DNA of 64,000 nt, taken from Candidatus Yonathbacteria bacterium RIFCSPLOWO2_01_FULL_47_33b. GTDB taxonomy: Bacteria > Patescibacteriota > Minisyncoccia > Phycocordibacterales > UBA1550. The notes beneath the pieces were generated by a model that saw nothing but the letters and a program-made list of their open reading frames with translations, made no database searches and was not told the DNA's origin. The stretch's first letter is position 1. The number at the start of each line of letters is the position of its first letter. Both the position numbers and the translations under genes were made by a program. This document shows, in pieces, positions 33,640 to 46,122 of the stretch. The stretch is taken from the NCBI GenBank assembly GCA_001823575.1, contig MHUW01000007.1:24223-88222 (forward strand), read 5' to 3'.

Positions 33640-33675
33640 AAAAGGCTTCCTCACGGAAGCCTTTTTTCTTTTTAC
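33640..33675 (+). terminator. rho-independent terminator
   Basis: aaaaggcttcc-tcac-ggaagcctttttt. Confidence 0.7.
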
Positions 33676-35144
33676 CCCCTCCTCAGCACCTCAAAGATCT
33701 CTACCATCGCCATCGTGTCGAGGGCGCAGTATTTGAGAAGGTTTGCTTTTGTTTTTTCAATATCTTCATCACTCATACCACCCCTGATCATCTTTTCCCA
33801 TTCGCTGAGCGCCATGGTGCCATTTTGAATATCGAGCGTCTTGTATGAGAGTTCGGGCAAAAGCACGGGCAATACTTTTTTAATAGATGCACTTCCCTGA
33901 AAATCTGGATGTTGATAGTCATCCTTAAAAATTTTCATCAAGTCAAAAACTCTACTGTTGATATCTTCGAGAAAACCGCGATGCTCGGGGTGCAGCTCAG
34001 CGAGCTCCATATTGCGCCCCTTCTCAAATGACTCATACCACACAATGACGCTGCCCACGGGCCCTACACAGCCTCGCAGGGCATCTAGGAGGCCATTTGT
34101 TGCGCCAGGCAGTCCACCCGCAAGGTATTCAAAGTGCTCAAGCGTGCCATCCGCATCAAGCTTGTGCACCGACACCTGAAAGACAATTTGCTGGTTTGTT
34201 TTGTACCCGTCGAGAAGTGGTATGGGCGTGCCGTAGGTTTCGTAGTCGAGAAAGTACAGTGGAAAGGTGAGCTGCGAAAGTGTTTCATCTATTCCTTCTG
34301 TATTGATAATCGGCCGACCCGTTTTTTGTAACGTAACCTTGTCACGCTGTATGTCGGTCAAGTCAAAGTCTTCGGGAATATCTGCAATCTCTAAAACACC
34401 CATATCTAAAAGTTGACGGAGTTTATTCCCCTGCACAATGTGATGCACCGAGTACTCCGGCACCTGCGGATTGAATTTATGGAAACAATCACACCGCTGA
34501 CCGTGGCTCTTATACAAACAGTCACACCCCACGAGCGAAATTTCATCCTTTGCAAGCATTACGAGTGCCCGTTCAATCTCTGCTCGCACCACCTCCTTTT
34601 CCTCATGTATCTGCTCGGTGACGTTCTCAATAATAAAAAGCTGGTTGATATCTACCTCGCCTGCACGGCGATATTCTTTGTTGATATAAATGATGTAACT
34701 ATCGCCCACGTTCACCCCTGCATCCTCGGCGACAATCGTCTGAAACCCGACATCCTTTATATGATTATGCTTGAGGTCGGTCTTGATCTCCGAGCTCGCC
34801 TTTACTTCATAAATATCCCACTTCCCTGTCTCGGCGTTAAAATTCAAAATATCTATTTTTGCAAAGAGCCCTTGCTTGGTCTCAAACGTCGCTTGAAAAA
34901 TCGAGTTGCTCCCCTGCAAAAGCTCCTGCGTACGCGCAAGCAGTGTCTCTTTGTTCCCCGTCACAAACACGCCGTCAGGAAAAAGCTTTTGCACATACTC
35001 CTCCACCTCGTACCCGTCCTTGATGAGCTTTTGCAGAAACAGCGAAAACTCGCCAGGGGTATATTCCTCCGGTCGCTTTTTCTTGAGCCACAAACACTTG
35101 TCGCACAAAAGAAATTCCTTAAAATCGGTTTTGGTGAGGGTCAT
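33672..35144 (-). CDS. DUF2779-like protein (Cas4-like PD-(D/E)XK nuclease N-terminus with Cys cluster + RNaseH-like/DEDD exonuclease-like C-terminus)
   Basis: CDKCLW...C, YEVK, GCDCLYKSHGQRCDC and FLDYETYGTPIPL motifs. The ATG abuts the upstream gene's stop. Confidence 0.65.
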   Translation of the reverse strand: MTLTKTDFKEFLLCDKCLWLKKKRPEEYTPGEFSLFLQKLIKDGYEVEEYVQKLFPDGVFVTGNKETLLARTQELLQGSNSIFQATFETKQGLFAKIDILNFNAETGKWDIYEVKASSEIKTDLKHNHIKDVGFQTIVAEDAGVNVGDSYIIYINKEYRRAGEVDINQLFIIENVTEQIHEEKEVVRAEIERALVMLAKDEISLVGCDCLYKSHGQRCDCFHKFNPQVPEYSVHHIVQGNKLRQLLDMGVLEIADIPEDFDLTDIQRDKVTLQKTGRPIINTEGIDETLSQLTFPLYFLDYETYGTPIPLLDGYKTNQQIVFQVSVHKLDADGTLEHFEYLAGGLPGATNGLLDALRGCVGPVGSVIVWYESFEKGRNMELAELHPEHRGFLEDINSRVFDLMKIFKDDYQHPDFQGSASIKKVLPVLLPELSYKTLDIQNGTMALSEWEKMIRGGMSDEDIEKTKANLLKYCALDTMAMVEIFEVLRRG

Positions 35145-36149
35145 TTAAGCTGTTTTCTTTTTCTTGCCACTCACAAGCATCGTAAGAATGAGCCCTACCA
35201 TTTTATCCTTGTGTGCAGGGTCGCTCTCGGCAACGAGGAGTGTGATTGCCGTAAGTGCTGGTGGTGTAATGCGCGACGTATCAAGTGCTTTCGCTTTCGC
35301 AAGGAACCATACAAACGCATATGCGCCACTTCTTTTGTTGCCGTCGATGAACGGATGATTTTTGATAACAAAATAGAGGAGGTGTGCTGCCTTTTCCTCA
35401 ACCGTTGGGTACATATCACTACCACCAAACGACTGCATCACATTCCCCACAATACCCGCCACGCTTCCTCGTTCGCGTTCGGTCGCAAAAAGATCTGTCG
35501 CCTCTCCTTTTACAACGAGGGACTCTTTGAGTGTCGCGAGGGCACTCCCAAAAGTCTCGGCTGTAATTTTAACCGATTTCTTGGTAGCACCATTGGTGAC
35601 CAGAGTGTCTTTATCGTAAGCATCAAGCGAAAGCCAAGTATCAGCAAAGAGCGAGATGAGTTCAAGGATTCCCTCAGTGTCCACGGTCGCACCCTTGGGG
35701 AGTAGTGCCTTCACGTCGGCCACCGTCTTCAAAAACGCATCATAATTTTGTGAAATACGAGACTTGTTTATCGTGTAGCCGTCAACGATATGAGCACGGA
35801 GGGTTTTGGTTGCCCATTGGCGGAATTTTGTACCAACTACCGAATTTATTCGATACCCCACGGCAATCAAAATATCGAGATTATAAATATCAACCTCACG
35901 GCGAACCTCTCTGCCTGACTCATTTTGAACTAGTTCCATTTTGGAACTAGTTGCTCCCCGAGCCAGCTCCTTTCCCTTATAGATATTTTGGATATGCTTT
36001 GAAATTGCTTGCGGATTTACCTCAAACATTTCGGCCATCTGCATACGTGTCGCCCACACCGTTTCCTTACCAAAATCACCCCGAAGCTCAATAGCTCCAG
36101 ATTTTGCTTGATAGATTACCACTTCTTTTTTAATTTCTTTCGCTTTCAT
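35145..36149 (-). CDS. RhuM-domain / Doc(Fic)-family fusion protein
   Basis: N-terminal RhuM-like region (YQAKSGAIELRGDF...ILIAVGYRINS) and C-terminal Doc motif HPFIDGNKR. Confidence 0.75.
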   Translation of the reverse strand: MKAKEIKKEVVIYQAKSGAIELRGDFGKETVWATRMQMAEMFEVNPQAISKHIQNIYKGKELARGATSSKMELVQNESGREVRREVDIYNLDILIAVGYRINSVVGTKFRQWATKTLRAHIVDGYTINKSRISQNYDAFLKTVADVKALLPKGATVDTEGILELISLFADTWLSLDAYDKDTLVTNGATKKSVKITAETFGSALATLKESLVVKGEATDLFATERERGSVAGIVGNVMQSFGGSDMYPTVEEKAAHLLYFVIKNHPFIDGNKRSGAYAFVWFLAKAKALDTSRITPPALTAITLLVAESDPAHKDKMVGLILTMLVSGKKKKTA

Positions 36150-36598: not shown

Positions 36599-36682
36599 CG
36601 CGCTTCTCCCCTGTTAAATATGTTATTGAAAACAACCAACCTGCCCACAACCCTACCACAAAAGCGCAGGAAATCAAGATGC

Positions 36683-36717
36683 CTATCATTTGGAAGCTTC
36701 GCTTCCAAATGATAGGA
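36683..36717. repeat. 15-bp-arm perfect inverted repeat (cctatcatttggaag / cttccaaatgatagg)
   Basis: Read directly. Lies in the 5' leader of the 36598 gene, next to a terminator. Confidence 0.6.
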
Positions 36718-36758
36718 AAAGCCCCCGCCATTAGAAAATGGCGGGGGCTTTTGTCTCG
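36716..36758. terminator. bidirectional terminator with a perfect 15-bp stem
   Basis: aaaagcccccgccat-tagaaa-atggcgggggctttt. Confidence 0.75.
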
Positions 36759-36763
36759 AGAAA

Positions 36764-37189
36764 TTAACTAAGTGATGCTACTTCACGCATGATTTGATCA
36801 AGCTTGGTGTTGATAGCTTCTAGTTGTTTCAGAACTGCATCATTGCTGGTGCCGCTTTCAGCGCGAGGAGCGTACGGAGCGCGGGGGCTGAAATCCTTTT
36901 TAGGAAATCTGTCTCCACCTCTATCCTTATTGAAACTTCCTCCTGCTACATTGAAACAATCCTTGCAGTACACAGGCTTTGCTCCCGTAGGGCGAAACGG
37001 TACTTCGCACGCCTTGTGGCACTCTGAACACGTTGCCTTATAGAGCGTAAACGGCGCATCGCTTGATTTACGATCTCCCCAATTCTTCTTGCCATAACTC
37101 GGCGCACCCGAGCGATTAGCACCAAATGAAGGTTTTCCTCCTCTTGCTCCATAACTCCCACTACCCCCTCGTTTGTTGTATTCTGTCAT
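36764..37189 (-). CDS. Gly/Arg-rich zinc-ribbon protein (CxxC...CxxC)
   Basis: CSECHKACEVPFRPTGAKPVYCKDCF with a low-complexity G/R/S-rich N-terminus. Confidence 0.6.
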   Translation of the reverse strand: MTEYNKRGGSGSYGARGGKPSFGANRSGAPSYGKKNWGDRKSSDAPFTLYKATCSECHKACEVPFRPTGAKPVYCKDCFNVAGGSFNKDRGGDRFPKKDFSPRAPYAPRAESGTSNDAVLKQLEAINTKLDQIMREVASLS

Positions 37190-37317: not shown

Positions 37318-37395
37318 TCTTTCGGTTTTACCATTAAACCGTAAGGGTATTACATCCTAGGGTAGCCCTCCGCAAGGAGGGCTACTTTGTTTTCT
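37318..37395 (+). ncRNA. candidate small RNA (approx. 78 nt) between a consensus promoter and an intrinsic terminator
   Basis: Promoter at 37283-37310, terminator gtagccctcc-gcaa-ggagggctac + tttgttttc. No ORF. Confidence 0.3.
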
Positions 37396-37972
37396 CTTCT
37401 CGGTGTTTCAAATCACGTCCCCAGATATCTTCTTCGATTTTGAGAACATCAACGTACCCGTCCCCTCCTGTGCGTAATTCTTCAGAGACGTTGTTCTTTG
37501 AGGAATAAGCATACACCTTTTTACCATCTCGCTTCAAATAGGTCACCAAGGCGAGAAAATCAGAATCCCCAGAGAAAAAGATAGCCGTATCATATTTATT
37601 CTTGTAATGAATAACATCAATAGTCATCTCTACGTCCATGTTTCCTTTTTCCTCCACAATATCCCCGTCATCTGAATGAACAGTGATACGTTTGAGTTCT
37701 TTTTTGCGAACAGTAAAACCTAAACCTTTCTTAAGGTAAGTAAAAAATTTATGCTTACCGTCCAATGAATAATCGCGAGTTCCTTCTGCTGGATATGCTG
37801 TGTAATAAAATACATCAATAGTATCCGCTCCATGCTTTTCCTTCAAAAATTTCTTCAATTTTTCAAAATCAAACACCCGTCCCTTCACCTTTTGCGCAGC
37901 CCAAAGGTTCGACGCGTCAATGAAGACGTACACGGCATGCGGTTTCTTTTCATCAGCTGTCATAACAATCAT
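37382..37972 (-). CDS. NYN-domain (LabA-like, PIN-fold) protein
   Basis: VFIDASNLW...IFFSGDSDF signature. Confidence 0.8.
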   Translation of the reverse strand: MIVMTADEKKPHAVYVFIDASNLWAAQKVKGRVFDFEKLKKFLKEKHGADTIDVFYYTAYPAEGTRDYSLDGKHKFFTYLKKGLGFTVRKKELKRITVHSDDGDIVEEKGNMDVEMTIDVIHYKNKYDTAIFFSGDSDFLALVTYLKRDGKKVYAYSSKNNVSEELRTGGDGYVDVLKIEEDIWGRDLKHREEKTK

Positions 37973-38075
37973 TCTACCACATTCTCTGCGAACGCCTCCC
38001 TTAAATATGCTTTTTCGAGAAATTTGAGGTCGGCGAGTTTGGTGGTTTGGAGGGTGCGGAAGATGATAAAAATCC

Positions 38076-38576
38076 TTACTTCAACACAACCCCGAGGTCG
38101 TAGATATCAAGTTTTCCATCGTTGTTTAGGTCACCGCTGTCGAGTGTCCCTTGTTTTTTGTGCAGGTCGTAGATGAGTTTTAGGTATTTCCCAAGCACGA
38201 TGCGCGGAATCTCATACTGTCGTTCCTTGCCATACCATTCAAATGGGTCTCGGCCGCTCTTTTTGGCGTTACAACCGCGACATGCAAGCACTTGGTTATC
38301 AAACGTATCTATCGCGATTTTTACCTTAGGAATAATATGCTCCCATTCAAGCCCCTCCTCAGCGCTAGCACAATATGCACAAGCTTTTTCTTCGTTAAAG
38401 AATTTCTTGTTCTCTCGCAAAATGTTCGATGGTTGCATCTGTCCATCTTTCAATTTTTTATACGAATGCATAACAAACCCGTAATTCTTTCGGTCACCAA
38501 CCGTGCTCCCCGCAATGAGCTTTGCGTATTCCCAATAAATAAGGTCCCGAATTGTTTTTACTGAAGCGTGAGGCAT
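38076..38576 (-). CDS. HNH endonuclease with a dockerin-like C-terminal motif
   Basis: CAYC...EWEHIIP...LACRGCNAKK HNH motif. C-terminal DLNNDGKLDIYDL. Confidence 0.8.
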   Translation of the reverse strand: MPHASVKTIRDLIYWEYAKLIAGSTVGDRKNYGFVMHSYKKLKDGQMQPSNILRENKKFFNEEKACAYCASAEEGLEWEHIIPKVKIAIDTFDNQVLACRGCNAKKSGRDPFEWYGKERQYEIPRIVLGKYLKLIYDLHKKQGTLDSGDLNNDGKLDIYDLGVVLK

Positions 38577-38590
38577 GATATTTTAAATTC

Positions 38591-38962
38591 TCAGTCTGCT
38601 TTTTTGTTTCTCGGGATCTCACTTCGGGGTTCTCTTCGAGATTTATCAAAAATATTTTCCAGCCATCTTACTAGGAAATTATGATGGTCACCACCAACCT
38701 CATCATAACGCCTGCCTGTAAGGTTTCTTGTAACTGCCTTTAAAAATTCGGCTAGATGCTCGATTTGTAACTTAATATTAACATCCTTTGTAGAAGTAGC
38801 CAGGGAGCGCGTCGCTCTATATTCTGAATTAAATATATTCGCAAGCTCCTGTTTATGTTTTCTCTCCTTAATAAAGACTGAGAATTCGTAGGTAATAAAA
38901 ATAACATTAACAACAAATGAGACTATCTGGAGCCACTCTGGGCTTGGAATTATATTTGGCAT
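38591..38962 (-). CDS. hypothetical membrane-anchored protein
   Basis: N-terminal TM. Same operon as the HNH gene. Confidence 0.5.
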   Translation of the reverse strand: MPNIIPSPEWLQIVSFVVNVIFITYEFSVFIKERKHKQELANIFNSEYRATRSLATSTKDVNIKLQIEHLAEFLKAVTRNLTGRRYDEVGGDHHNFLVRWLENIFDKSRREPRSEIPRNKKAD

Positions 38963-38966
38963 AATT

Positions 38967-39140
38967 TTAGTGTTTGGTTGGGTCTACTAATTTATAAGAA
39001 GATCCTAGTTTTAAGATTGGCGGTAATGTTTTCCCTTTTACACACGTGACTTCAATTCCTGTTTCGCCTCCTCTTGGTCCTATTACTTCATACTGCCCTG
39101 ATCTTGGCACCGCTTGCCCTGGTTTAAATGTATTCTTCAT
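38967..39140 (-). CDS. small YjzC-like protein (57 aa), absent from the ORF track
   Basis: Manual translation MKNTFKPGQAVPRSGQYEVIGPRGGETGIEVTCVKGKTLPPI... matches the YjzC-like pattern KPG.KAP.SG.Y...G..GG...LPP. 4-5 nt intergenic gaps on both sides. Confidence 0.45.
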   Translation of the reverse strand: MKNTFKPGQAVPRSGQYEVIGPRGGETGIEVTCVKGKTLPPILKLGSSYKLVDPTKH

Positions 39141-39145
39141 AATTA

Positions 39146-39709
39146 TTATTCAGCTTCATTAAGTTCTTCCTTTTCCTTGCAATATTTTTCAGAAAAGTCC
39201 TTTAGCGCCACCTTGATGTCTTTAAGTTCACCATCCATTACTGCATCGTTTGTTTCTGGTGTTTTGGGAATAAGTAATTTTACTCCACCACCAAATTTAA
39301 ATTCAAAATTATGAGCAGAGTTATCGATTTCAGCAGAAAAACCTGTTTTATCCTTAGAAACAGCTACATTGGTTGATATTTTTTTAGAGCGAGAAATCAC
39401 TTTGGGTGACCAGTTTGCCATTTTTGTTGGATCAACCCCATATTTTTCATAATCAGAAAGAACTTTAGTTACACGTGACTTATAAGTTGCCAGTGAGCTT
39501 GCGCTGAAGTTTTTGTTTTTTGAAAATACGTTCTGGTAAATTTGCTCGATGTTTTTGCTAAATACGTCTATCGAATTGCGCTCCTCTTCATTTAATACTG
39601 CCTCAAACAGCTTCAGTGCTGTTTTAAGTGCCATACCTGTATTGTCAGGGTATTTTCTGCTCTTGACCGCTCTGTCTATAAACTCATATAGATCTTGAAT
39701 TTTTTTCAT
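39146..39709 (-). CDS. hypothetical protein
   Basis: First gene of a 4-gene minus-strand operon downstream of the RM gene. Confidence 0.5.
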   Translation of the reverse strand: MKKIQDLYEFIDRAVKSRKYPDNTGMALKTALKLFEAVLNEEERNSIDVFSKNIEQIYQNVFSKNKNFSASSLATYKSRVTKVLSDYEKYGVDPTKMANWSPKVISRSKKISTNVAVSKDKTGFSAEIDNSAHNFEFKFGGGVKLLIPKTPETNDAVMDGELKDIKVALKDFSEKYCKEKEELNEAE

Positions 39710-39851
39710 GATATTTTTGGGGTTAATTAGTAACTCCTAAATGCTATCACAACTCAACAATATAAGTCAAGTGATAATATAAACAGATTTGTGTATAATC
39801 TGTTTATATGTGGTTTTTAAAGGGTTTTATGTTATTAAAGTTTTATTTGGA

Positions 39852-42800
39852 CTACTTATCAACATTTTTAATTGCAATCATAATCCTATCCGTTTCAACC
39901 AGTGCTACAATCATTTTTTGATAGTGTTCGATGTCTGTGTTGGAGAGTTTGCGGGATTGGCGGTCCTTGAGCCATTTTTGAGCAGGCTGATAGCCACCGA
40001 TGTAGAAATTCCAGGCGACTTCAGGAACATTGCCAAAATACTGCGTGTCATTGATGTACACATTGCCATCTTTGTATTTTGGATATTTCGCCTCGACGGT
40101 GTCGCTTCCCGCCTGAGGAAATGTCGTGATGAAGTTTTTGAGCTTTGGTGATTCCAAAAGATGTAGTGCGCGGAGTTCACCACCGAGCGCAACAAGCTTT
40201 TTGAACGACTCAGTATCTTGAGGATAAGGAACACGCGGAAAATTAATCTTCAAAAACTCTTTATATTTTTCGCGGTAACTTGGTGAGTGCAAAGCGGCAT
40301 AGATGTAATCAAAAATATCTTCGGGGGTTGTCTTGCCGACAATCTTTTCTATTTCATCAACAATTTCTTTTTTGAGGTTCGGTGTTTTTAAGCCGTCTTC
40401 GGTGTAGAGATAGAGGGGGAAAGTATAAGCACCTTCCTTCGTCTGCAAAGAAACGGTACATCTATCAACGAGTGTTTTTGTTAAAAAAATGTGTTTAAAA
40501 TCAGAGCTGCTTTGCTGCTTGGAAACCAGCAGGGCTAAATTATCTTTACCAACCAAATGTTTGTAAACTTTATATCCAGAACGACTAATCAGCTCTGGGT
40601 CATAATAGATCCACACAAAACCAAACGGTCTATACTGCTCTAACTGTATGTAATTTTCATCAAACAACTTCCCTTTAATTCGTTCCGTTAATTTATATCC
40701 ACTTGAGTCGACCACTCGATAAGTAGATTTAAAACTACCACTGTAATTATTTGATAGAAGTTCTTGAATTTTCTTTGTGAGTTTACTTTTATCAAAATCT
40801 GTGAAGAGCGGGTCTCGATCAGTCTGAACACCAGAATTCGAAATCTGAAATAACTCATCAACCTTAAAACCTTTCTCATATTCTTCATTCGCACCAAAAT
40901 CTTTCGGCACAAAAAAATAGTACGGCTCAGAATATTCAAGTTTCTGCCATTTAATATTTTCTACCGACCCAGCATCAAGTGCCTCGAACTTTACTTTTTG
41001 TTTTCCGTAGAGTTCGGTGTGGTACATATCTGCCAACCGCTTTTTCTTTCCGCTTTTCTTTACGAACAGAGAGATAGATACACCCTGTTGAATAGCGAAA
41101 ACGTTTTCGTCCTTCCCTCCGTCAGGTGCTACTTCTTTCTTTTTTGCATTGCCGTGCAGGTCGATAATATAAATCGAGTCAAATGTTTCGAGCAAGTGTT
41201 TGCGCATTTGACGGTGCGTGATTCCGTCGATGAATGAGTTGTTCGTAATCATACCAACAATCCCCTCACCATTTTTCTCAATTAAGTCCTCAGTAAAACG
41301 AATGAATTTTATATAATCATCGTCAAGGTTGATTTTACGCTCGTTCAAATCTTTTTTGTATTCCTTGATCAATTCTGAAATATGTTCACCCTTGTTTTGC
41401 GAGCTGACATTATAGGGCGGGTTGCCCATCACGACCATGATCGGCAATTCGTTTTTTACGCGGTTTGCTTGGTTGGACTCTTCAGTGATTGCTTTACCGA
41501 GACCGATGCTTGAAAATAAGGTGTTTTCTTCTGACTCGCCTTTTTCGAGCGAGTTGGTTAGGTACACACCGAGGCGCGTACTCTCGTTAATATTTGCGCC
41601 AGACTCTTTGATCGTCGAAGAAAGTTTGAGGTGTGCGATAGTGTACGACGCCATCATAAGTTCAAAGCCATGAAGGCGCGGGAGTAGGTCTTCGTTCACA
41701 TAATTGTTCCACCTCCCCTCTTGCCCTGCAAATGATTTTTGGATGTGCTGTATCGCTTCATTCAAAAATGTCCCCGTGCCTGTTGCGGGGTCGAGTACTT
41801 GGACTTTGTGCACCGACACTTTGTGTTTCTTGCCTTGCACCTCTTTCATTATTTCGATTTTTGAATTTTCGGCGAGGCCTTGCGCAAGACCAAACTCTTT
41901 TTTCAAAATGTCATCTACGGCGCGAACAATGAACCGCACCACAGGGAGTGGGGTGTAGAACACGCCCATCTTTTTGCGCTCGGCAGGGTCATACTCCTGC
42001 AAGAAGTCTTCGTAAAAATGAATGATGGGGTCGCGACTGTCGTCCTTGCCCACTTTGTAGTAGTTATGCACGATTGCCTCTACGTCGGCATTAGTAAACT
42101 CTTCACAAAGTTCGTTTACAATAAACTCAATACGTGGGTCAAACGACGAGCCGGCGATGTGGTCAAAAAAATGGCGAAGAAACGGATTGGACGCTGGGAC
42201 TAAATCACGCGCTTCCCTGCGCGAAAAATCCTCTGGTGTATCGTCATAGTACCTTGCAACAAAAAGCCCGTACACGAGCGTCTGTGCATACATATCGGCA
42301 AACTTTTCCTTGTCGAGGTCGGCAAGTAAGAGCTTTTTGATAACCTCGTAGACAGAGAGTAGGTTTTCATTTTTTGCGTTGTCTTCTTGCGCAAGAAAAA
42401 CCTTTACATTGTCGCGGATACGGCGCGCCTTGCCAGCCATCACCTTTGCCAAGACTGAGCCAGACTTTATCGGCTCTTTTGATTCGGTGATGAAGCCGCT
42501 AATTGTGTCCTCGAGAAGCTTGAACGTTTCCTCGTTTGAAACTATTTCTTTTTTGTCGAGCTTTGCGATAACAACCGCCTCGCCGTATCGTGTAGCATTT
42601 TGATAAAAACGAAACTCAAGACAGTTGGTAAGAATAATATTTGAGTATCCGTAATACCTACCCATTTGTTCGCTTTTTTCTATCTCGTCAAGTGAAATAT
42701 TAAGGTCCTTTGCTTCTGCATATGCAACAACGGTCTTCCCTTTAGTAAAGACGAAATCCGGTGCGCCATACTCGCTTCGTTTTGGTTCGTTGTGAACTTT

Positions 42801-42920
42801 TAATTCGGTGATTTTTTCAAACAACTCTTGAAGCGCGGGGCGGTACGAGTGCTCGGTAGCATGTCCGCTTGCGTGCGTTTCAGCGACTTTTTGTATGAAA
42901 TTTTTTACAGTTTGACTCAT
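39852..42920 (-). CDS. Type IIG restriction-modification enzyme, MmeI-like (nuclease + gamma-class N6-adenine MTase + TRD)
   Basis: N-terminal PDFVF...AYAEAKD nuclease motif. MTase motif I VLDPATGTGTFL and motif IV NPPY. Length about 1000 aa. The track start 42959 is not ATG, so the ATG at 42920 is preferred. Confidence 0.85.
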   Translation of the reverse strand: MSQTVKNFIQKVAETHASGHATEHSYRPALQELFEKITELKVHNEPKRSEYGAPDFVFTKGKTVVAYAEAKDLNISLDEIEKSEQMGRYYGYSNIILTNCLEFRFYQNATRYGEAVVIAKLDKKEIVSNEETFKLLEDTISGFITESKEPIKSGSVLAKVMAGKARRIRDNVKVFLAQEDNAKNENLLSVYEVIKKLLLADLDKEKFADMYAQTLVYGLFVARYYDDTPEDFSRREARDLVPASNPFLRHFFDHIAGSSFDPRIEFIVNELCEEFTNADVEAIVHNYYKVGKDDSRDPIIHFYEDFLQEYDPAERKKMGVFYTPLPVVRFIVRAVDDILKKEFGLAQGLAENSKIEIMKEVQGKKHKVSVHKVQVLDPATGTGTFLNEAIQHIQKSFAGQEGRWNNYVNEDLLPRLHGFELMMASYTIAHLKLSSTIKESGANINESTRLGVYLTNSLEKGESEENTLFSSIGLGKAITEESNQANRVKNELPIMVVMGNPPYNVSSQNKGEHISELIKEYKKDLNERKINLDDDYIKFIRFTEDLIEKNGEGIVGMITNNSFIDGITHRQMRKHLLETFDSIYIIDLHGNAKKKEVAPDGGKDENVFAIQQGVSISLFVKKSGKKKRLADMYHTELYGKQKVKFEALDAGSVENIKWQKLEYSEPYYFFVPKDFGANEEYEKGFKVDELFQISNSGVQTDRDPLFTDFDKSKLTKKIQELLSNNYSGSFKSTYRVVDSSGYKLTERIKGKLFDENYIQLEQYRPFGFVWIYYDPELISRSGYKVYKHLVGKDNLALLVSKQQSSSDFKHIFLTKTLVDRCTVSLQTKEGAYTFPLYLYTEDGLKTPNLKKEIVDEIEKIVGKTTPEDIFDYIYAALHSPSYREKYKEFLKINFPRVPYPQDTESFKKLVALGGELRALHLLESPKLKNFITTFPQAGSDTVEAKYPKYKDGNVYINDTQYFGNVPEVAWNFYIGGYQPAQKWLKDRQSRKLSNTDIEHYQKMIVALVETDRIMIAIKNVDK

Positions 42921-42997: not shown

Positions 42998-43348
42998 TTA
43001 CAGCTTCGTATACTTCGTATGCTTCCCTTTGGCTTTTTCGACGGGGTATTTGGCTTTGTTTTTCTCTATCTTTTTCTCGTGGGCGTCGGCGATGTCGATG
43101 CCGAGGTCGTGACTCATCAAAAGGACCCACGAGAGCACATCCGCGAGCTCCTCGCCTATCTCCTCTTTACCCTCTTTTACATACACCTCTATTTCCTCTT
43201 TGTTTTTCCACTGGAAATGCTCCAGCACCTCGGCTGCCTCGAGCGAGAGCGATATTGCGCAGTCCTTGGGGTTGTGGAACTGCTGCCAGTCGCGTTCATC
43301 CCGAAACTTGGTAATCTCCTCCGTTAATTTTTGAATTGAATTAGGCAT
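42998..43348 (-). CDS. MazG-like nucleotide pyrophosphohydrolase (small all-alpha NTP-PPase)
   Basis: EEI..F...R.W..FH.PK...SL..E..E.LE and EE..D MazG-type motifs. 2-nt gap from the upstream gene. Confidence 0.8.
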   Translation of the reverse strand: MPNSIQKLTEEITKFRDERDWQQFHNPKDCAISLSLEAAEVLEHFQWKNKEEIEVYVKEGKEEIGEELADVLSWVLLMSHDLGIDIADAHEKKIEKNKAKYPVEKAKGKHTKYTKL

Positions 43349-43350
43349 TT

Positions 43351-44409
43351 TTATTGTAGGGATTTTTTTGCTTCATTTTTTGCACGCTCAACCATAAATT
43401 TAACGGCTTCGTTCATATTGGTGTCCTGGATTACAATATCCGGCCGTTTTTCCTGAAATACGCGGTAGACCTCATCAGCAAATGCTTGCCCAATCATCGG
43501 AACACGATCATAATCCATCACGATTATTCTGAATTTCTCAAGCCCCGACAATACACGCCGAGCCTGAGAACGAGAAATATGCACACCACCCATAGTGTAC
43601 AAGCGGACTCGAATCTCTGTTTTATCAAACCCATAATCGCTATCTTCAGCAAGGTTAGTATACTTCTTAAAAATATCGTTCAAATGGTGTTTGTCTTTTA
43701 TATTGATCTTGAAACTCACCTTCGTCCCTTTTTTGATTCCCTTTATTTTTTTAACGAAGATGTCTTTAATTTTGTTATCCGCAATATATTGATACCCGTA
43801 GCTATCAAGTACAAAAAGGTCCCCGACTTTTGATGTGAAGAAAATACCCTCACCTGAATGAAGTTTGGGCGCTGTGGTCATTTTTCCTTTTAAAAGGTCC
43901 TGAATTGCTTCAATCTCAGAGTTAAGGTTGCGTTTACGCATAATGTTACGGTATACACCAACGCCGTAGTCATCAATAACAAAAGAAAGCTCGTTGTCTT
44001 TCAGTAGTACCGTAACCTGAATTATTTCTGACTTGGAATGTTCGATAGCATTATTCAACATTTCTGAAAATGCGAACGTAAAAATACTTTTTATATTTTC
44101 TGGAAGTTTTTTAAACGGTAAAAATGAGCGCTCAACATCATCAAGGACTTTGTGCTCCTCGAGAGATTTGTTTTCTAATTTTTTGGTGTACCTATTTTCA
44201 ATAGTGTCTGGATGGGAATCAGCGTATTCTGGCAAAACATACGCGGCATTGCGAGTCGATCCTATTTTTATAAGTTTTCCTTCGGCGACAAGTTCAGACA
44301 GCATTTTTGAAACATACTGCCTCGTAACACTAAAAGCCGCCACAAAATAGGCACTTTTAAGAAGCCCTTTCTGTTTTGCTATCTTGAGTATCTTTTCCTT
44401 GTTCAGCAT
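43351..44409 (-). CDS. wHTH - GHKL ATPase-like - DUF4325 (STAS-like) protein
   Basis: N-terminal HTH, central FSEMLNNAIEHS (HATPase_c-like) and C-terminal RIIVMDYDRV...GQAFADEV (DUF4325-like). The track starts at TTG 44421. Confidence 0.6.
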   Translation of the reverse strand: MLNKEKILKIAKQKGLLKSAYFVAAFSVTRQYVSKMLSELVAEGKLIKIGSTRNAAYVLPEYADSHPDTIENRYTKKLENKSLEEHKVLDDVERSFLPFKKLPENIKSIFTFAFSEMLNNAIEHSKSEIIQVTVLLKDNELSFVIDDYGVGVYRNIMRKRNLNSEIEAIQDLLKGKMTTAPKLHSGEGIFFTSKVGDLFVLDSYGYQYIADNKIKDIFVKKIKGIKKGTKVSFKINIKDKHHLNDIFKKYTNLAEDSDYGFDKTEIRVRLYTMGGVHISRSQARRVLSGLEKFRIIVMDYDRVPMIGQAFADEVYRVFQEKRPDIVIQDTNMNEAVKFMVERAKNEAKKSLQ

Positions 44410-44462
44410 ATTGTAAACCAATTGTAAACCAATGCTTTTTAATTGTCAACTAATTGTCAACC
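44410..44462 (-). promoter_or_regulatory. promoter built from tandem 11-bp repeats (2x TTGACAATTAG, 2x TTTACAATTGG) giving TTGACA-17-TACAAT, leaderless
   Basis: Repeats read directly. The -10 lies immediately upstream of the ATG. Confidence 0.55.
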
Positions 44463-45814: not shown

Positions 45815-45957
45815 AGTCTGCGGCCAAGCCGTGAATTTTGTAATTCAGAATCTGCTGATTCAGGATCGCCTCTCGCTCTGCTGAGCTCGAAACCTACGTC
45901 CTCTCTTCGAGGACTGCGGCCCGCGGTTCAATCCCAAGTTCTTCAACCGTTGTAAAT

Positions 45958-45992
45958 AAAAAGCACCCTCATGACAAGGGTGCTTTTTATTT
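45958..45992 (-). terminator. terminator downstream of tRNA-Gln
   Basis: aaaaagcaccc-ttgtcatga-gggtgcttttt. Confidence 0.7.
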
Positions 45993-45998
45993 ACAAAA

Positions 45999-46069
45999 CT
46001 GGGGAACTTGGGATCGAACCAAGATTGACGGCTTCAAAGGCCGCTGTCCTACCATTAGACGATTCCCCA
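45999..46069 (-). tRNA. tRNA-Gln (anticodon TTG)
   Basis: Manual cloverleaf: acceptor UGGGGAA/UUCCCCA with U1-A72, D-arm GUCU-AAUGGUA-GGAC, anticodon arm GCGGC-CUUUGAA-GCCGU, T-arm CUUGG-UUCGAUC-CCAAG, discriminator G. CCA is not encoded. Confidence 0.85.
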
Positions 46070-46122
46070 ATATTTAAAACAGCACTTGTGCAGAATACAC
46101 CAAAAGAGATACTTCGGCAACG

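What the first reader, a model, noticed from the sequence alone, without database searches (positions are those of the whole stretch)
38076..42920. MmeI-like Type IIG RM enzyme followed by a four-gene operon ending in an HNH endonuclease with a dockerin-like tail
The 1022-aa protein has the MmeI architecture (N-terminal PD-ExK nuclease, gamma-class NPPY methyltransferase, C-terminal TRD) and is therefore a single-chain RM system. Immediately downstream is an operon with its own TTGACT-17-TAGCAT promoter. It encodes a 187-aa hypothetical, an unannotated 57-aa YjzC-like protein, a TM protein and a 166-aa HNH nuclease, separated by gaps of 4, 5 and 14 nt. The HNH ends with DLNNDGKLDIYDL, a Ca-binding dockerin-repeat-like motif not expected on a nuclease. 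The operon could be an accessory to the RM enzyme or an independent HNH-based system.
Basis: partly seen in the sequence, partly recalled or inferred. Interest (0 to 1): 0.6.

Follow-up and report, generated by a model that had tools for sequence, protein, structure and literature searches.

The report
Restriction enzyme beside mosaic nuclease cassette
A one-protein restriction-modification enzyme in an uncultivated groundwater bacterium sits next to a short gene cassette that is a patchwork rather than one system: a DNA-binding lead gene that elsewhere is followed by other nucleases, plus an HNH nuclease gene that turns up on its own in many unrelated bacteria and archaea.

Summary
The source is a Candidatus Yonathbacteria (CPR) genome.

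- **Large gene:** it is a complete single-chain Type IIG/IIL restriction-modification enzyme. By sequence it belongs with DrdV and the Type ISP enzymes, not with the MmeI family.
- **The "four-gene operon" is a mosaic, not one system.** Its lead gene (187 aa) belongs to a family of stand-alone proteins that, in the named records, comes only from CPR bacteria. These proteins have an integrase-type core-binding fold and their own conserved promoter. In 41 other loci the lead gene is followed by varying partners: NYN, DUF3800, RNase H-like, small proteins. It is never followed by this HNH.
- **Link to restriction enzymes:** the lead gene lies just downstream of Type IIG enzymes of two different families in 7 of those loci. 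This reduces to about two lineages.
- **The HNH** belongs to a roughly 166-aa family that is 60-80% identical across bacterial and archaeal phyla. In 44 genomes it sits in unrelated, often housekeeping, contexts, and its GC3 differs from its operon mates. It is most likely an independent mobile passenger.
- **The tail** is a conserved single Ca-loop motif (103 of 120 homologs), not a dockerin.

Overall: an ordinary RM enzyme, an uncharacterised HNH subfamily, and a modestly interesting candidate cassette family.

The parts
39852..42920 (-). Single-chain Type IIG/IIL restriction-modification enzyme, 1022 aa. It has an N-terminal PD-(D/E)xK-type motif (P54-D55 ... E69-A70-K71), a helical connector, a gamma-class N6-adenine methyltransferase (DPATGTGTF then NPPY) and a Type_ISP_C target-recognition domain.
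   Evidence: PADLOC REase_MTase_IIG 4.8e-282. Pfam Type_ISP_C 2.6e-83, N6_Mtase, Eco57I, weak MmeI_Mtase. PDB 7lo5 6.7e-50, LlaBIII and LlaGI. The nuclease motif is invariant in the two homologs found next to relatives of the 187-aa gene.
39779..39807 (-). An 11-bp AT-rich hairpin between the RM gene and the cassette promoter. Its loop and arm carry a DnaA-box-like 9-mer, TTATACACA (39790-39798).
   Evidence: Sequence read. The same 9-mer class (TTATCCACA or one mismatch) lies 26-29 nt upstream of the -35 in 7 loci of the family, the window included, against a background of 0.044 per 370 nt. The terminator scan does not call it a terminator.
39741..39770 (-). Promoter of the cassette: TTGACT, 18-nt spacer, TG-extended TAGCAT.
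   Evidence: A positionally conserved TTGAC plus TGnTAnnAT is seen in homologous loci, 33 of 42.
39146..39709 (-). Lead gene, p187. It is a stand-alone core-binding (integrase N-terminal SAM-like) helical domain (residues 1-100), a disordered linker, and a small beta-beta-alpha-alpha C-terminal domain. There is no recombinase catalytic domain.
38967..39140 (-). p57, a small soluble protein, unannotated in the NCBI record. It is YjzC-like at sub-threshold score.
   Evidence: Pfam YjzC 20.6 bits, below the 25-bit cut-off. phrog_3202 7.6e-11. It directly follows p187 homologs in L055, L061, L062 and L103.
38591..38962 (-). p123, a single-pass membrane-type small protein.
   Evidence: Hydropathy peak at residues 13-31. 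Only 9 clusters are known. Elsewhere it lies beside LexA/S24 proteins. It is found once more with p187 and p57, in L103.
38076..38576 (-). Free-standing HNH endonuclease, 166 aa. The zinc-ribbon HNH core is C66-x2-C69 ... H80 ... N94 ... C99-x2-C102-N103 (38268-38381). A single EF-hand/dockerin-type loop, D149-D160, lies at 38097-38132.
37382..37972 (-). NYN-domain (PIN-like) nuclease gene, 103 nt downstream of the HNH. NYN is the commonest partner class of p187 elsewhere, so this may be the cassette's original payload.
   Evidence: Pfam NYN 1e-23. NYN genes directly follow p187 homologs in L059, L065, L076, L078, L095 and L096, and lie slightly further away in L084 and L088. No terminator is predicted between the HNH and NYN.
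42998..43348 (-). MazG-like gene immediately upstream of the RM gene. It recurs in the same position in related islands.
   Evidence: Homologs (E about 1e-50) lie upstream of the RM in L055 and upstream of the SLFN/Nhi-like helicase in L065.

Best explanation
The region is a stretch of a defence-type genomic island in a Candidatus Yonathbacteria genome. It holds three separable things rather than an RM enzyme plus one accessory system.

**1. The RM enzyme.** It is a complete DrdV-like Type IIL/IIG enzyme. By analogy with DrdV and MmeI, it should recognise an asymmetric site, methylate one adenine for self-protection, and cut unmodified DNA a fixed distance away once several site-bound molecules assemble.

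**2. A separately promoted cassette led by p187.** p187 is a stand-alone integrase-type core-binding (DNA-binding) domain joined by a disordered linker to a small C-terminal domain. In the records that name an organism, the family comes only from CPR bacteria. It always starts its own transcription unit and is followed, usually within 3-10 nt, by an interchangeable payload, often a nuclease (NYN, DUF3800, RNase H-like). Here p57 and the membrane protein p123 follow it, and all three share an AT-rich codon signature, so they arrived together. The most likely role of p187 is an inference, not a demonstrated fact: a DNA-binding regulator or adaptor of a toxin-antitoxin-like or defence-type module whose effector is the downstream nuclease.

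**3. The HNH gene.** It is an autonomous, horizontally spreading gene that inserted at the 3' end of this cassette, between p123 and the NYN gene. It uses the cassette's transcription, as its relatives do inside unrelated operons elsewhere. Its conserved C-terminal DxNxDGxxDxxD loop is most likely a single structural or regulatory metal-binding site, not a dockerin.
For: **RM enzyme**
- Family and architecture.
- The DrdV preprint (bioRxiv 10.1101/2021.01.06.425610) gives the same domain order and says the DrdV MTase and TRD resemble those of Type ISP enzymes.

**Separability of the HNH**
- None of 44 genome loci with an HNH homolog carries p187, p57, p123 or this RM family.
- No neighbour is conserved across those loci.
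- Neighbours include OppC/OppD, with the HNH sitting between them at gaps of 7 and 4 nt. Others are CarB/UPF0047, DnaE and TauE.
- None of 41 p187 loci has the HNH.
- GC3 is 0.48 for the HNH against 0.30, 0.28 and 0.33 for p187, p57 and p123.
- Identity is 60-80% between CPR, Thaumarchaeota, Acidobacteriota and other phyla.

**The p187 cassette**
- Fold and weak sequence evidence for the core-binding domain.
- Uniform size in the family; none of the 150 listed members is long enough to carry a fused catalytic domain.
- Conserved promoter in 33 of 42 loci.
- Variable payloads with tight spacing.
- Defence-type upstream neighbours: Type IIG enzymes of two families, an Nhi/AbiO-like helicase, and an MTase-like 785-aa protein.
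- The DUF3800 partner matches PADLOC PDC-M04A, and the NYN partners match PADLOC NYN and HEC-09.
Against: - No experiment or expression data exist. The role of p187 rests on fold and gene neighbourhood only.
- The C-terminal variants of p187 do not track the payload type. That fits poorly with a classic antitoxin whose C-terminus neutralises one specific toxin.
- Several p187 loci have no same-strand gene called directly downstream, or are followed by non-nuclease genes such as FMN reductase, an HTH protein or small membrane proteins.
- The RM adjacency reduces to about two lineages. The MmeI-type neighbours share 75-90% identical C-termini, and two of them are only gene remnants.
- The 14-nt gap and the lack of a terminator would equally fit the HNH having been recruited as this cassette's effector.
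- No insertion scars or flanking repeats were found.
- The HNH is absent from phage records and nearly absent from plasmid records, so how it moves is unknown.
Confidence: 0.55

Rival explanations
1. The cassette is a dedicated accessory of the Type IIG enzyme. It could be a regulator, a second nuclease that completes cleavage, or an addiction module that stabilises the RM gene.
For: - p187 homologs lie directly downstream, on the same strand, of Type IIG enzymes in the window, L055 and L062 (Type_ISP_C family).
- The same holds for L057, L064, L068, L075 and L076 (true MmeI family).
- Two unrelated TRD families make a pure accident of descent less likely.
- A MazG-like gene upstream recurs as well.
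Against: - 34 of 41 other p187 loci have no Type IIG gene upstream. Many lie next to MreC, a tRNA synthetase, PNPase, DnaK or pyruvate kinase.
- The cassette has its own conserved promoter.
- In L068 and L075 the RM gene has decayed to a remnant while p187 stays intact.
- The payload differs from locus to locus.
- DrdV- and MmeI-type enzymes are known to work as single polypeptides.
Confidence: 0.12
2. All four genes form one HNH-based defence system: p187 as DNA sensor, p57 and the membrane protein p123 as adaptors, and the HNH as effector.
For: - Gaps of 5, 4 and 14 nt under one promoter.
- p187 cassettes elsewhere swap nuclease effectors, a pattern typical of defence systems.
- The HNH weakly resembles the PtuB and PDC-M01B effector HNHs.
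Against: - The combination is unique to this organism's population.
- The HNH family occurs as a solitary gene within housekeeping operons.
- The HNH's codon composition differs from the other three genes.
- p123's usual neighbours are LexA/S24 proteins, not p187.
Confidence: 0.13
3. There is no functional linkage at all. The genes are unrelated small mobile or accessory genes that pile up in a permissive island, and p187 is simply a lineage-specific DNA-binding protein such as a nucleoid or replication-associated factor.
For: - The island has low GC and mixed GC3.
- Neighbours vary widely.
- Some p187 loci share a HisRS-MreB-MreC ... TGT chromosomal setting.
- A DnaA-box-like element sits in the promoter.
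Against: - Very tight spacing of p187 to its downstream gene in most loci.
- Recurrent nuclease payloads and defence-type upstream genes, far above what about 1-Mb CPR genomes would give by chance. That expectation is my own inference and was not formally computed.
Confidence: 0.2

Closest known systems
DrdV (Type IIL RM enzyme; PDB 7lo5/7lvv, 1029 aa)
   Same: - Single chain of almost the same length.
- Same domain order: N-terminal nuclease, helical connector, gamma-class MTase, TRD.
- MTase and TRD align over residues 302-988 at E 6.7e-50.
- The domain order matches the description in the DrdV preprint.
   Different: - The N-terminal 300 residues have no detectable sequence match to any solved structure.
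- The recognition sequence is unknown, and the TRD segment is the most variable part among close homologs.
- That PDB entry 7lo5 is DrdV rests on my own knowledge plus the matching length of 1029.
MmeI family (Type IIL; Pfam MmeI_N, MmeI_hel, MmeI_Mtase, MmeI_TRD, MmeI_C)
   Same: - Overall architecture, and presumably one-strand m6A protection.
- A true MmeI-family enzyme occupies the equivalent position upstream of a p187 homolog in L057.
   Different: - Only MmeI_Mtase matches the window enzyme, at 30.2 bits, just above its cut-off.
- MmeI_N, MmeI_hel, MmeI_TRD and MmeI_C do not match.
- No MmeI structure is hit in the PDB search.
Type ISP enzymes LlaGI / LlaBIII
   Same: The MTase and the Type_ISP_C TRD are homologous (E 1e-41 to 1e-48; Pfam 2.6e-83).
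   Different: The window enzyme has no RecA-like ATPase or translocase module. At 1022 aa it is much shorter than 1406-1578 aa.
Cas9 / IscB-type HNH domains, and small HNH proteins such as PDB 4h9d
   Same: - ββα-Me HNH with a CxxC...H...N...CxxC-N zinc ribbon.
- NCBIfam Cas9d, Cas9 and IscB domain hits at 1e-8 to 1e-10.
- 4h9d at E 3.9e-4.
   Different: - It is a free-standing 166-aa protein with its own N-terminal three-helix region and a C-terminal helix plus Ca-type loop.
- The whole protein has no structural match.
Dockerin F-hand / EF-hand Ca-binding loop
   Same: A 12-residue loop with ligand positions 1, 3, 5, 9 and 12 (D149, N151, D153, D157, D160), G at position 6 and a hydrophobic residue at position 8, followed by a helix.
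   Different: - There is only one loop, not the duplicated roughly 22-residue segments of a dockerin.
- No Dockerin or EF-hand Pfam model matches. The only hits are FG-GAP at E 0.035-0.079, below threshold.
- There is no hydrophobic N-terminal segment that would suggest secretion.
- 17 of 120 homologs have lost the ligand residues.
Core-binding (N-terminal SAM-like) domain of tyrosine recombinases; recombinase-derived regulators (MrpR, SroF)
   Same: - MrpR and SroF also appear in the list.
- Weak Phage_int_SAM_1 hits.
   Different: - There is no catalytic domain in any of the 150 listed family members (83-212 aa), so it is not a recombinase.
- The C-terminal ββαα domain has no identified relative.
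Type II toxin-antitoxin modules with PIN-like toxins (VapBC-type)
   Same: - Own promoter.
- First gene is a DNA-binding domain plus a flexible linker plus a small C-terminal domain.
- Second gene is a nuclease, often a NYN/PIN-like one, starting 3-10 nt later.
- The modules are scattered in variable genomic sites.
   Different: - p187 is larger than usual antitoxins.
- Its C-terminal type does not co-vary with the payload.
- No toxicity data exist.
- Some loci have no payload.

Membership tests
Type IIG/IIL single-chain RM enzymes | N-terminal PD-(D/E)xK nuclease motif | tested here: met
   P54-D55 ... E69-A70-K71 is present and invariant in two 56-63% identical homologs. Full-length PADLOC Type IIG models cover residues 11-990. 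This is motif-level evidence only; the segment has no structural match.
Type IIG/IIL single-chain RM enzymes | Gamma-class N6-adenine MTase (motif I before NPPY) fused to a C-terminal TRD | tested here: met
   DPATGTGTF precedes GNPPY. Pfam N6_Mtase, Eco57I and Type_ISP_C at 2.6e-83. Aligned to 7lo5.
Type IIG/IIL single-chain RM enzymes | Site-specific methylation and cleavage activity | not testable with these tools
   Needs methylome data or biochemistry.
MmeI family proper | MmeI_N, MmeI_hel, MmeI_TRD and MmeI_C domains | tested here: not met
   None of the four matches the window enzyme. All are found in the L057 enzyme, so the models do work on CPR sequences.
Type ISP RM enzymes | RecA-like ATPase/translocase between the nuclease and the MTase | tested here: not met
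   No helicase or ATPase family is hit, and the protein is 1022 aa.
HNH (ββα-Me) endonucleases | CxxC ... H ... N ... CxxC-(N/H) catalytic and zinc motif | tested here: met
   Pfam HNH 33.7 bits against a 21.4-bit cut-off. The motif is intact in 119 of 120 homologs.
Dockerin module | Two tandem F-hand Ca-binding segments forming a roughly 60-70 aa module on a secreted protein | tested here: not met
   There is a single loop at the extreme C-terminus, no Dockerin Pfam hit and no signal-like hydrophobic N-terminus.
EF-hand/DxDxDG-type Ca loop | 12-residue loop with acidic or amide ligands at positions 1, 3, 5, 9 and 12, and Gly at position 6 | tested here: met
   D149-L-N-N-D-G-K-L-D-I-Y-D160. 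The pattern is kept in 103 of 120 homologs. The loop is followed by a helix in the model. Metal binding itself was not tested.
Septu (PtuA-PtuB) | PtuB-type HNH paired with a PtuA ATPase | tested here: not met
   PtuB models hit only at about 1e-6 over the HNH core. No ATPase gene lies next to the HNH in the window.
Tyrosine recombinases | Core-binding domain plus a catalytic domain with RHR-Y residues | tested here: not met
   The core-binding fold is present. The catalytic domain is absent in p187 and in all 150 listed family members.
Type II toxin-antitoxin systems | Autoregulated two-gene operon; antitoxin neutralises a growth-arresting toxin | tested here: inconclusive
   The operon layout and nuclease partners fit. 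The p187 C-terminal type does not co-vary with the partner. Toxicity and neutralisation cannot be tested here.
YjzC-like (PF14168), for p57 | Pfam score above the gathering threshold | tested here: inconclusive
   20.6 bits against a 25-bit cut-off, E 5.7e-4. phrog_3202 at 7.6e-11.

The most novel reading that the evidence does not exclude
The p187 family (a stand-alone integrase-type core-binding domain plus a small C-terminal domain) with its swappable downstream nucleases (NYN, DUF3800, RNase H-like, here possibly HNH and NYN) would be a previously undescribed two-component defence or abortive-infection system found only in CPR bacteria. It would be preferentially parked behind Type IIG restriction enzymes as a second line of defence. 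Its promoter would be wired to DnaA or replication status through the conserved DnaA-box-like element. Separately, the HNH would be a new kind of metal-gated (Ca-loop) selfish nuclease gene that spreads between bacteria and archaea.
Probability: 0.2. Interest if true: 0.6.

Novelty: new member of a known kind. Interest (0 to 1): 0.35.

Why it matters
- **RM enzyme:** it adds a DrdV-like Type IIL enzyme from a CPR bacterium. That is a potentially new specificity for the enzyme toolbox, but it is not conceptually new.
- **Operon is a mosaic:** apparent operons in these small genomes can be built from independent mobile pieces, so tight spacing alone should not be read as one system.
- **The HNH family:** a very conserved, uncharacterised HNH subfamily with a single Ca-type loop is shared by bacteria and archaea.
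- **The p187 family:** this family (CPR bacteria only in the records that name an organism) heads cassettes with interchangeable nucleases and sits in defence neighbourhoods. If it proves to be a defence or toxin-antitoxin module, it would add to what is known of immunity in CPR bacteria, where few systems have been described.

Tried and rejected
- **RM N-terminus against PDB sequences** (first 298 aa): only chance-level hits. The nuclease assignment therefore rests on the motif and on full-length Type IIG HMMs.
- **Conserved-neighbour search around 44 HNH homologs:** the only "conserved" clusters were antisense ORFs inside the HNH gene itself, plus an ABC ATPase in a few related Burkholderiales.
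- **HNH and p57 against phage records:** no match.
- **HNH against plasmids:** 3 weak hits. No vehicle for HNH spread was identified.
- **Fold searches:** p187 against viral structures gave nothing below E 0.09. The AlphaFold-database library was unavailable. For the HNH, only HNH domains were found and the whole protein had no match.
- **Repeats flanking the island or the HNH:** none convincing.
- **Rfam on the window:** only tRNA-Gln.
- **Literature search for Ca-binding or EF-hand HNH endonucleases:** nothing relevant.
- **p187 C-terminal variant against payload type:** I looked for co-variation that would indicate a specific protein-protein pairing, and found none.
- **Eight independent RM-p187 associations:** I considered this and rejected it. 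The MmeI-type neighbours are one lineage, and two of them are remnants.

Full report
**1. Observation**

- The RM ORF is 39852-42920, 1022 aa from the ATG. Gene callers in several public assemblies of the same population agree on that length.
- The other genes are a 187-aa gene (39146-39709), a 57-aa gene (38967-39140), a 123-aa gene (38591-38962) and a 166-aa HNH gene (38076-38576).
- The gaps, in gene order, are 5, 4 and 14 nt.
- The source is Candidatus Yonathbacteria bacterium RIFCSPLOWO2_01_FULL, a CPR bacterium.
- The NCBI locus tags of the 123-aa and 187-aa genes are consecutive, so the 57-aa gene is indeed unannotated there. It is a real gene: it is conserved in the same position in five other loci and matches phrog_3202 at 7.6e-11.
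- The 123-aa protein has one transmembrane-like segment.
- The promoter is TTGACT-18-TAGCAT with a TG extension, not a 17-nt spacer. On its own it is a chance-level match. However, the same TTGAC / TGnTAnnAT arrangement about 60 nt before the start codon is found in 33 of 42 loci of the gene family.

**2. The large protein**

- PADLOC's Type IIG model scores 4.8e-282.
- Pfam finds Type_ISP_C (2.6e-83), N6_Mtase and Eco57I, plus MmeI_Mtase barely above threshold. MmeI_N, MmeI_hel, MmeI_TRD and MmeI_C do not match.
- The best solved relatives are 7lo5 (1029 aa, E 6.7e-50), then LlaBIII and LlaGI. No MmeI entry appears.
- DrdV is described as a 1029-residue Type IIL enzyme with an N-terminal nuclease, a helical connector, an MTase and a TRD, and its MTase and TRD are said to resemble the Type ISP enzymes (bioRxiv 10.1101/2021.01.06.425610).
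- The window enzyme has P54-D55 ... E69-A70-K71, DPATGTGTF and GNPPY. The nuclease motif is invariant in two homologs that are 56-63% identical, and the region inside the TRD is the most variable.
- The N-terminal 298 residues find no solved relative by sequence, so the nuclease is inferred at motif level.
- Conclusion: this is a complete single-chain Type IIG/IIL RM enzyme of the DrdV-like branch. It has the MmeI architecture but is not a member of the MmeI family.

**3. The HNH gene**

- The HNH core is intact (Pfam 4.1e-8). It is closest to Cas9/IscB-type HNH domains.
- The whole 166-aa protein defines a tight family. There are 297 clusters; the best 120 listed are nearly all full-length and 59-100% identical to the query. 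Members come from CPR bacteria, Thaumarchaeota, Acidobacteriota, Gemmatimonadota, Omnitrophota, Burkholderiales and others.
- The tail motif is conserved in 103 of 120 members, and the catalytic motif in 119 of 120.
- In the AlphaFold model (pLDDT 83.5) the loop follows a long helix and precedes a short terminal helix.
- It is a single EF-hand/dockerin-type loop. No dockerin or EF-hand model matches, there is only one loop, and nothing suggests secretion. Seventeen homologs have lost the ligand residues while keeping the flanks.
- In 44 genome loci with homologs, none carries a relative of the 187-aa, 57-aa or 123-aa proteins or of the RM enzyme. No neighbour is conserved.
- The neighbours are ordinary genes. 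In three Burkholderiales the HNH sits between oppC and oppD with gaps of 7 and 4 nt. Elsewhere it lies next to carB/UPF0047, dnaE, tauE, an AAA ATPase or DUF4411.
- Its GC3 (0.48) differs from that of the three genes before it (0.30, 0.28, 0.33).
- I conclude that the HNH is an autonomous, horizontally spreading gene that rides in host operons, and that its presence here is secondary.
- Its vehicle is unknown. It is absent from phage records and nearly absent from plasmid records, and no flanking repeats were found.

**4. The 187-aa lead gene (p187)**

- No curated family matches it.
- It has 171 close clusters, and those that carry an organism name are from Paceibacteria-type CPR bacteria. 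It has 441 representatives at 50% identity. The 150 listed are 83-212 aa, most about 170-210 aa.
- The model shows a confident helical domain (residues 1-100, pLDDT about 90), a disordered linker, and a small ββαα domain.
- Nine of 33 members give weak Phage_int_SAM_1 hits, best 8.2e-5.
- p187 is therefore a stand-alone core-binding-type, presumably DNA-binding, protein without a recombinase catalytic domain.

**5. Context of p187**

I examined 41 other distinct loci.
- **Promoter:** the gene nearly always has its own promoter.
- **Downstream, usually 3-10 nt away, is a variable gene:**
  - NYN nuclease directly after p187 in 6 loci, and slightly further away in 2 more.
  - DUF3800 in 4 loci; one partner matches PADLOC PDC-M04A.
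  - An RNase H-like protein in 2 loci.
  - A 158-aa unknown in 2 loci.
  - Small membrane proteins in 5 loci.
  - The 57-aa protein in 4 loci.
  - An HTH protein in 1 locus.
  - No same-strand gene called directly downstream in about a dozen loci; three of these are cut by a contig end.
  - The HNH never appears.
- **The 57-aa gene** is an optional insert between p187 and DUF3800 (L055, L062) or the 123-aa gene (L103, window).
- **The 123-aa family** is tiny (9 clusters). Its usual neighbours are LexA/S24 proteins, including LexA-S24-methyltransferase fusions.
- **Upstream of p187:**
  - Type_ISP_C-type Type IIG enzymes in L055, L062 and the window.
  - MmeI-family enzymes in L057, L064, L068, L075 and L076.
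  - An Nhi/AbiO-like SLFN helicase-S24 fusion in L065 and near L061.
  - An MTase-like 785-aa protein in L075.
  - Housekeeping genes elsewhere: MreC, a tRNA synthetase, PNPase, DnaK, pyruvate kinase.
- **How many independent RM links:** the MmeI-type neighbours share 75-90% identical C-termini, and in L068 and L075 only a 3' remnant of the RM gene is left. The RM link therefore reduces to about two lineages, not eight independent events.
- **p187 C-terminal variants** do not co-vary with the payload.
- **In the window,** an NYN gene lies 103 nt after the HNH with no predicted terminator between them. The ancestral arrangement may have been p187(-p57-p123)-NYN, with the HNH inserted later. This is inference.

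**6. Mechanism**

*Shown by the analyses*
- The gene content and the family assignments.
- The fold of p187.
- Independence of the HNH family from the other genes.
- Conservation of the promoter and of the Ca-type loop.

*Inferred*
- The RM enzyme works like DrdV or MmeI: one-strand m6A protection and multi-site-licensed cleavage at a fixed distance.
- p187 binds DNA, perhaps at its own promoter region, and acts as regulator or adaptor of a toxin-antitoxin-like or defence-type module whose effector is the downstream nuclease.
- The HNH is a selfish or independently selected passenger that uses the cassette's transcription. Its loop binds a divalent metal for folding or regulation.

I put about 0.55 on this three-part reading as a whole. 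Within it, I put roughly 0.3 on the specific regulator-plus-effector role of p187.

*Rivals*
- A dedicated RM accessory: 0.12.
- One four-gene HNH system: 0.13.
- No functional linkage at all: 0.2.

**7. Novelty and score**

- The RM enzyme is a new member of a known kind.
- The HNH is an uncharacterised subfamily of a known superfamily.
- The p187 cassettes are an undescribed but still hypothetical module.
- Interest is moderate to low (0.35). The most novel surviving reading is a CPR-specific defence or TA family with swappable nucleases and a DnaA-box-bearing promoter, at a probability of about 0.2.

Noticed in passing
window 39790-39798 (minus strand), inside hairpin 39779-39807; also L057, L059, L068, L071, L075, L076 upstream of p187 homologs: A DnaA-box-like 9-mer (TTATCCACA; TTATACACA in the window) lies 26-29 nt upstream of the -35 element of the p187 promoter in 7 loci, the window included. 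Background is 0.044 occurrences per 370 nt. It could be a DnaA or other regulator site. I did not test whether the conservation merely reflects shared descent.
   Followed up: partly
L104 4433-6895 (minus); L107 274-2154 (minus); L105 2727-4397: Homologs of the 123-aa membrane protein lie beside LexA/S24 proteins. These include fusions of a LexA DNA-binding domain and an S24 peptidase to DNA methyltransferases: 820 aa with N6_Mtase, Eco57I and TaqI_C, and 626 aa with N6_N4_Mtase. An autocleaving repressor fused to a methyltransferase is unusual.
   Followed up: no
L032 9968-10516, L033 9971-10519, L037 about 10000-10500: In three Burkholderiales genomes the HNH homolog sits inside an oligopeptide ABC transporter operon, between the OppC-type permease and the OppD-type ATPase, with gaps of 7 and 4 nt. 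This is a good place for an empty-site comparison.
   Followed up: partly
L068 272-505; L075 6663-6842: Only the last 59-77 codons of an MmeI-family gene survive upstream of intact p187 genes. In L075 a different 785-aa MTase-like gene precedes the remnant, which suggests RM gene replacement at this spot.
   Followed up: partly
window 42998-43348 and 43351-44421 (minus); L055 1643-1990; L065 135-482: A MazG-like gene lies directly upstream of the RM gene. It recurs upstream of the RM in L055 and upstream of the Nhi/AbiO-like helicase-S24 fusion in L065. In the window it is preceded, 2 nt away, by a DUF4325 protein.
   Followed up: no
window 33672-36149 (minus): A RhuM plus Fic/DOC protein (PADLOC PDC-S23, 2e-109) abuts a DUF2779 / Cas4-like PD-ExK nuclease with a 0-nt gap. 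This is another candidate defence pair in the same island.
   Followed up: no
window 36682-36752: Two perfect 16-bp hairpins lie back to back just downstream of the CxxC-x17-CxxC zinc-finger gene (36764-37189). They are called terminator-like on the minus strand.
   Followed up: no
window 45950-45996, beside tRNA-Gln 45998-46070: A perfect 20-bp inverted repeat with a 7-nt loop lies immediately next to the only tRNA gene in the window, near the higher-GC edge of the low-GC island.
   Followed up: no
window 37973-38075 (minus): The HNH-NYN spacer ends in TGTGGTAGAAT, an extended -10-like element that overlaps the first ATG of the NYN ORF. NYN may have its own promoter and start at the second ATG (residue 4), possibly on a leaderless transcript. 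I read this from the sequence only.
   Followed up: no
L002 8894-10501 and L003 1241-2848: In a Wolfebacteria genome and a Staskawiczbacteria genome, a 260-aa NYN gene lies immediately upstream of the HNH homolog. This is the reverse order from the window and there is no p187 gene. The HNH-NYN adjacency therefore recurs in CPR genomes for unknown reasons.
   Followed up: no
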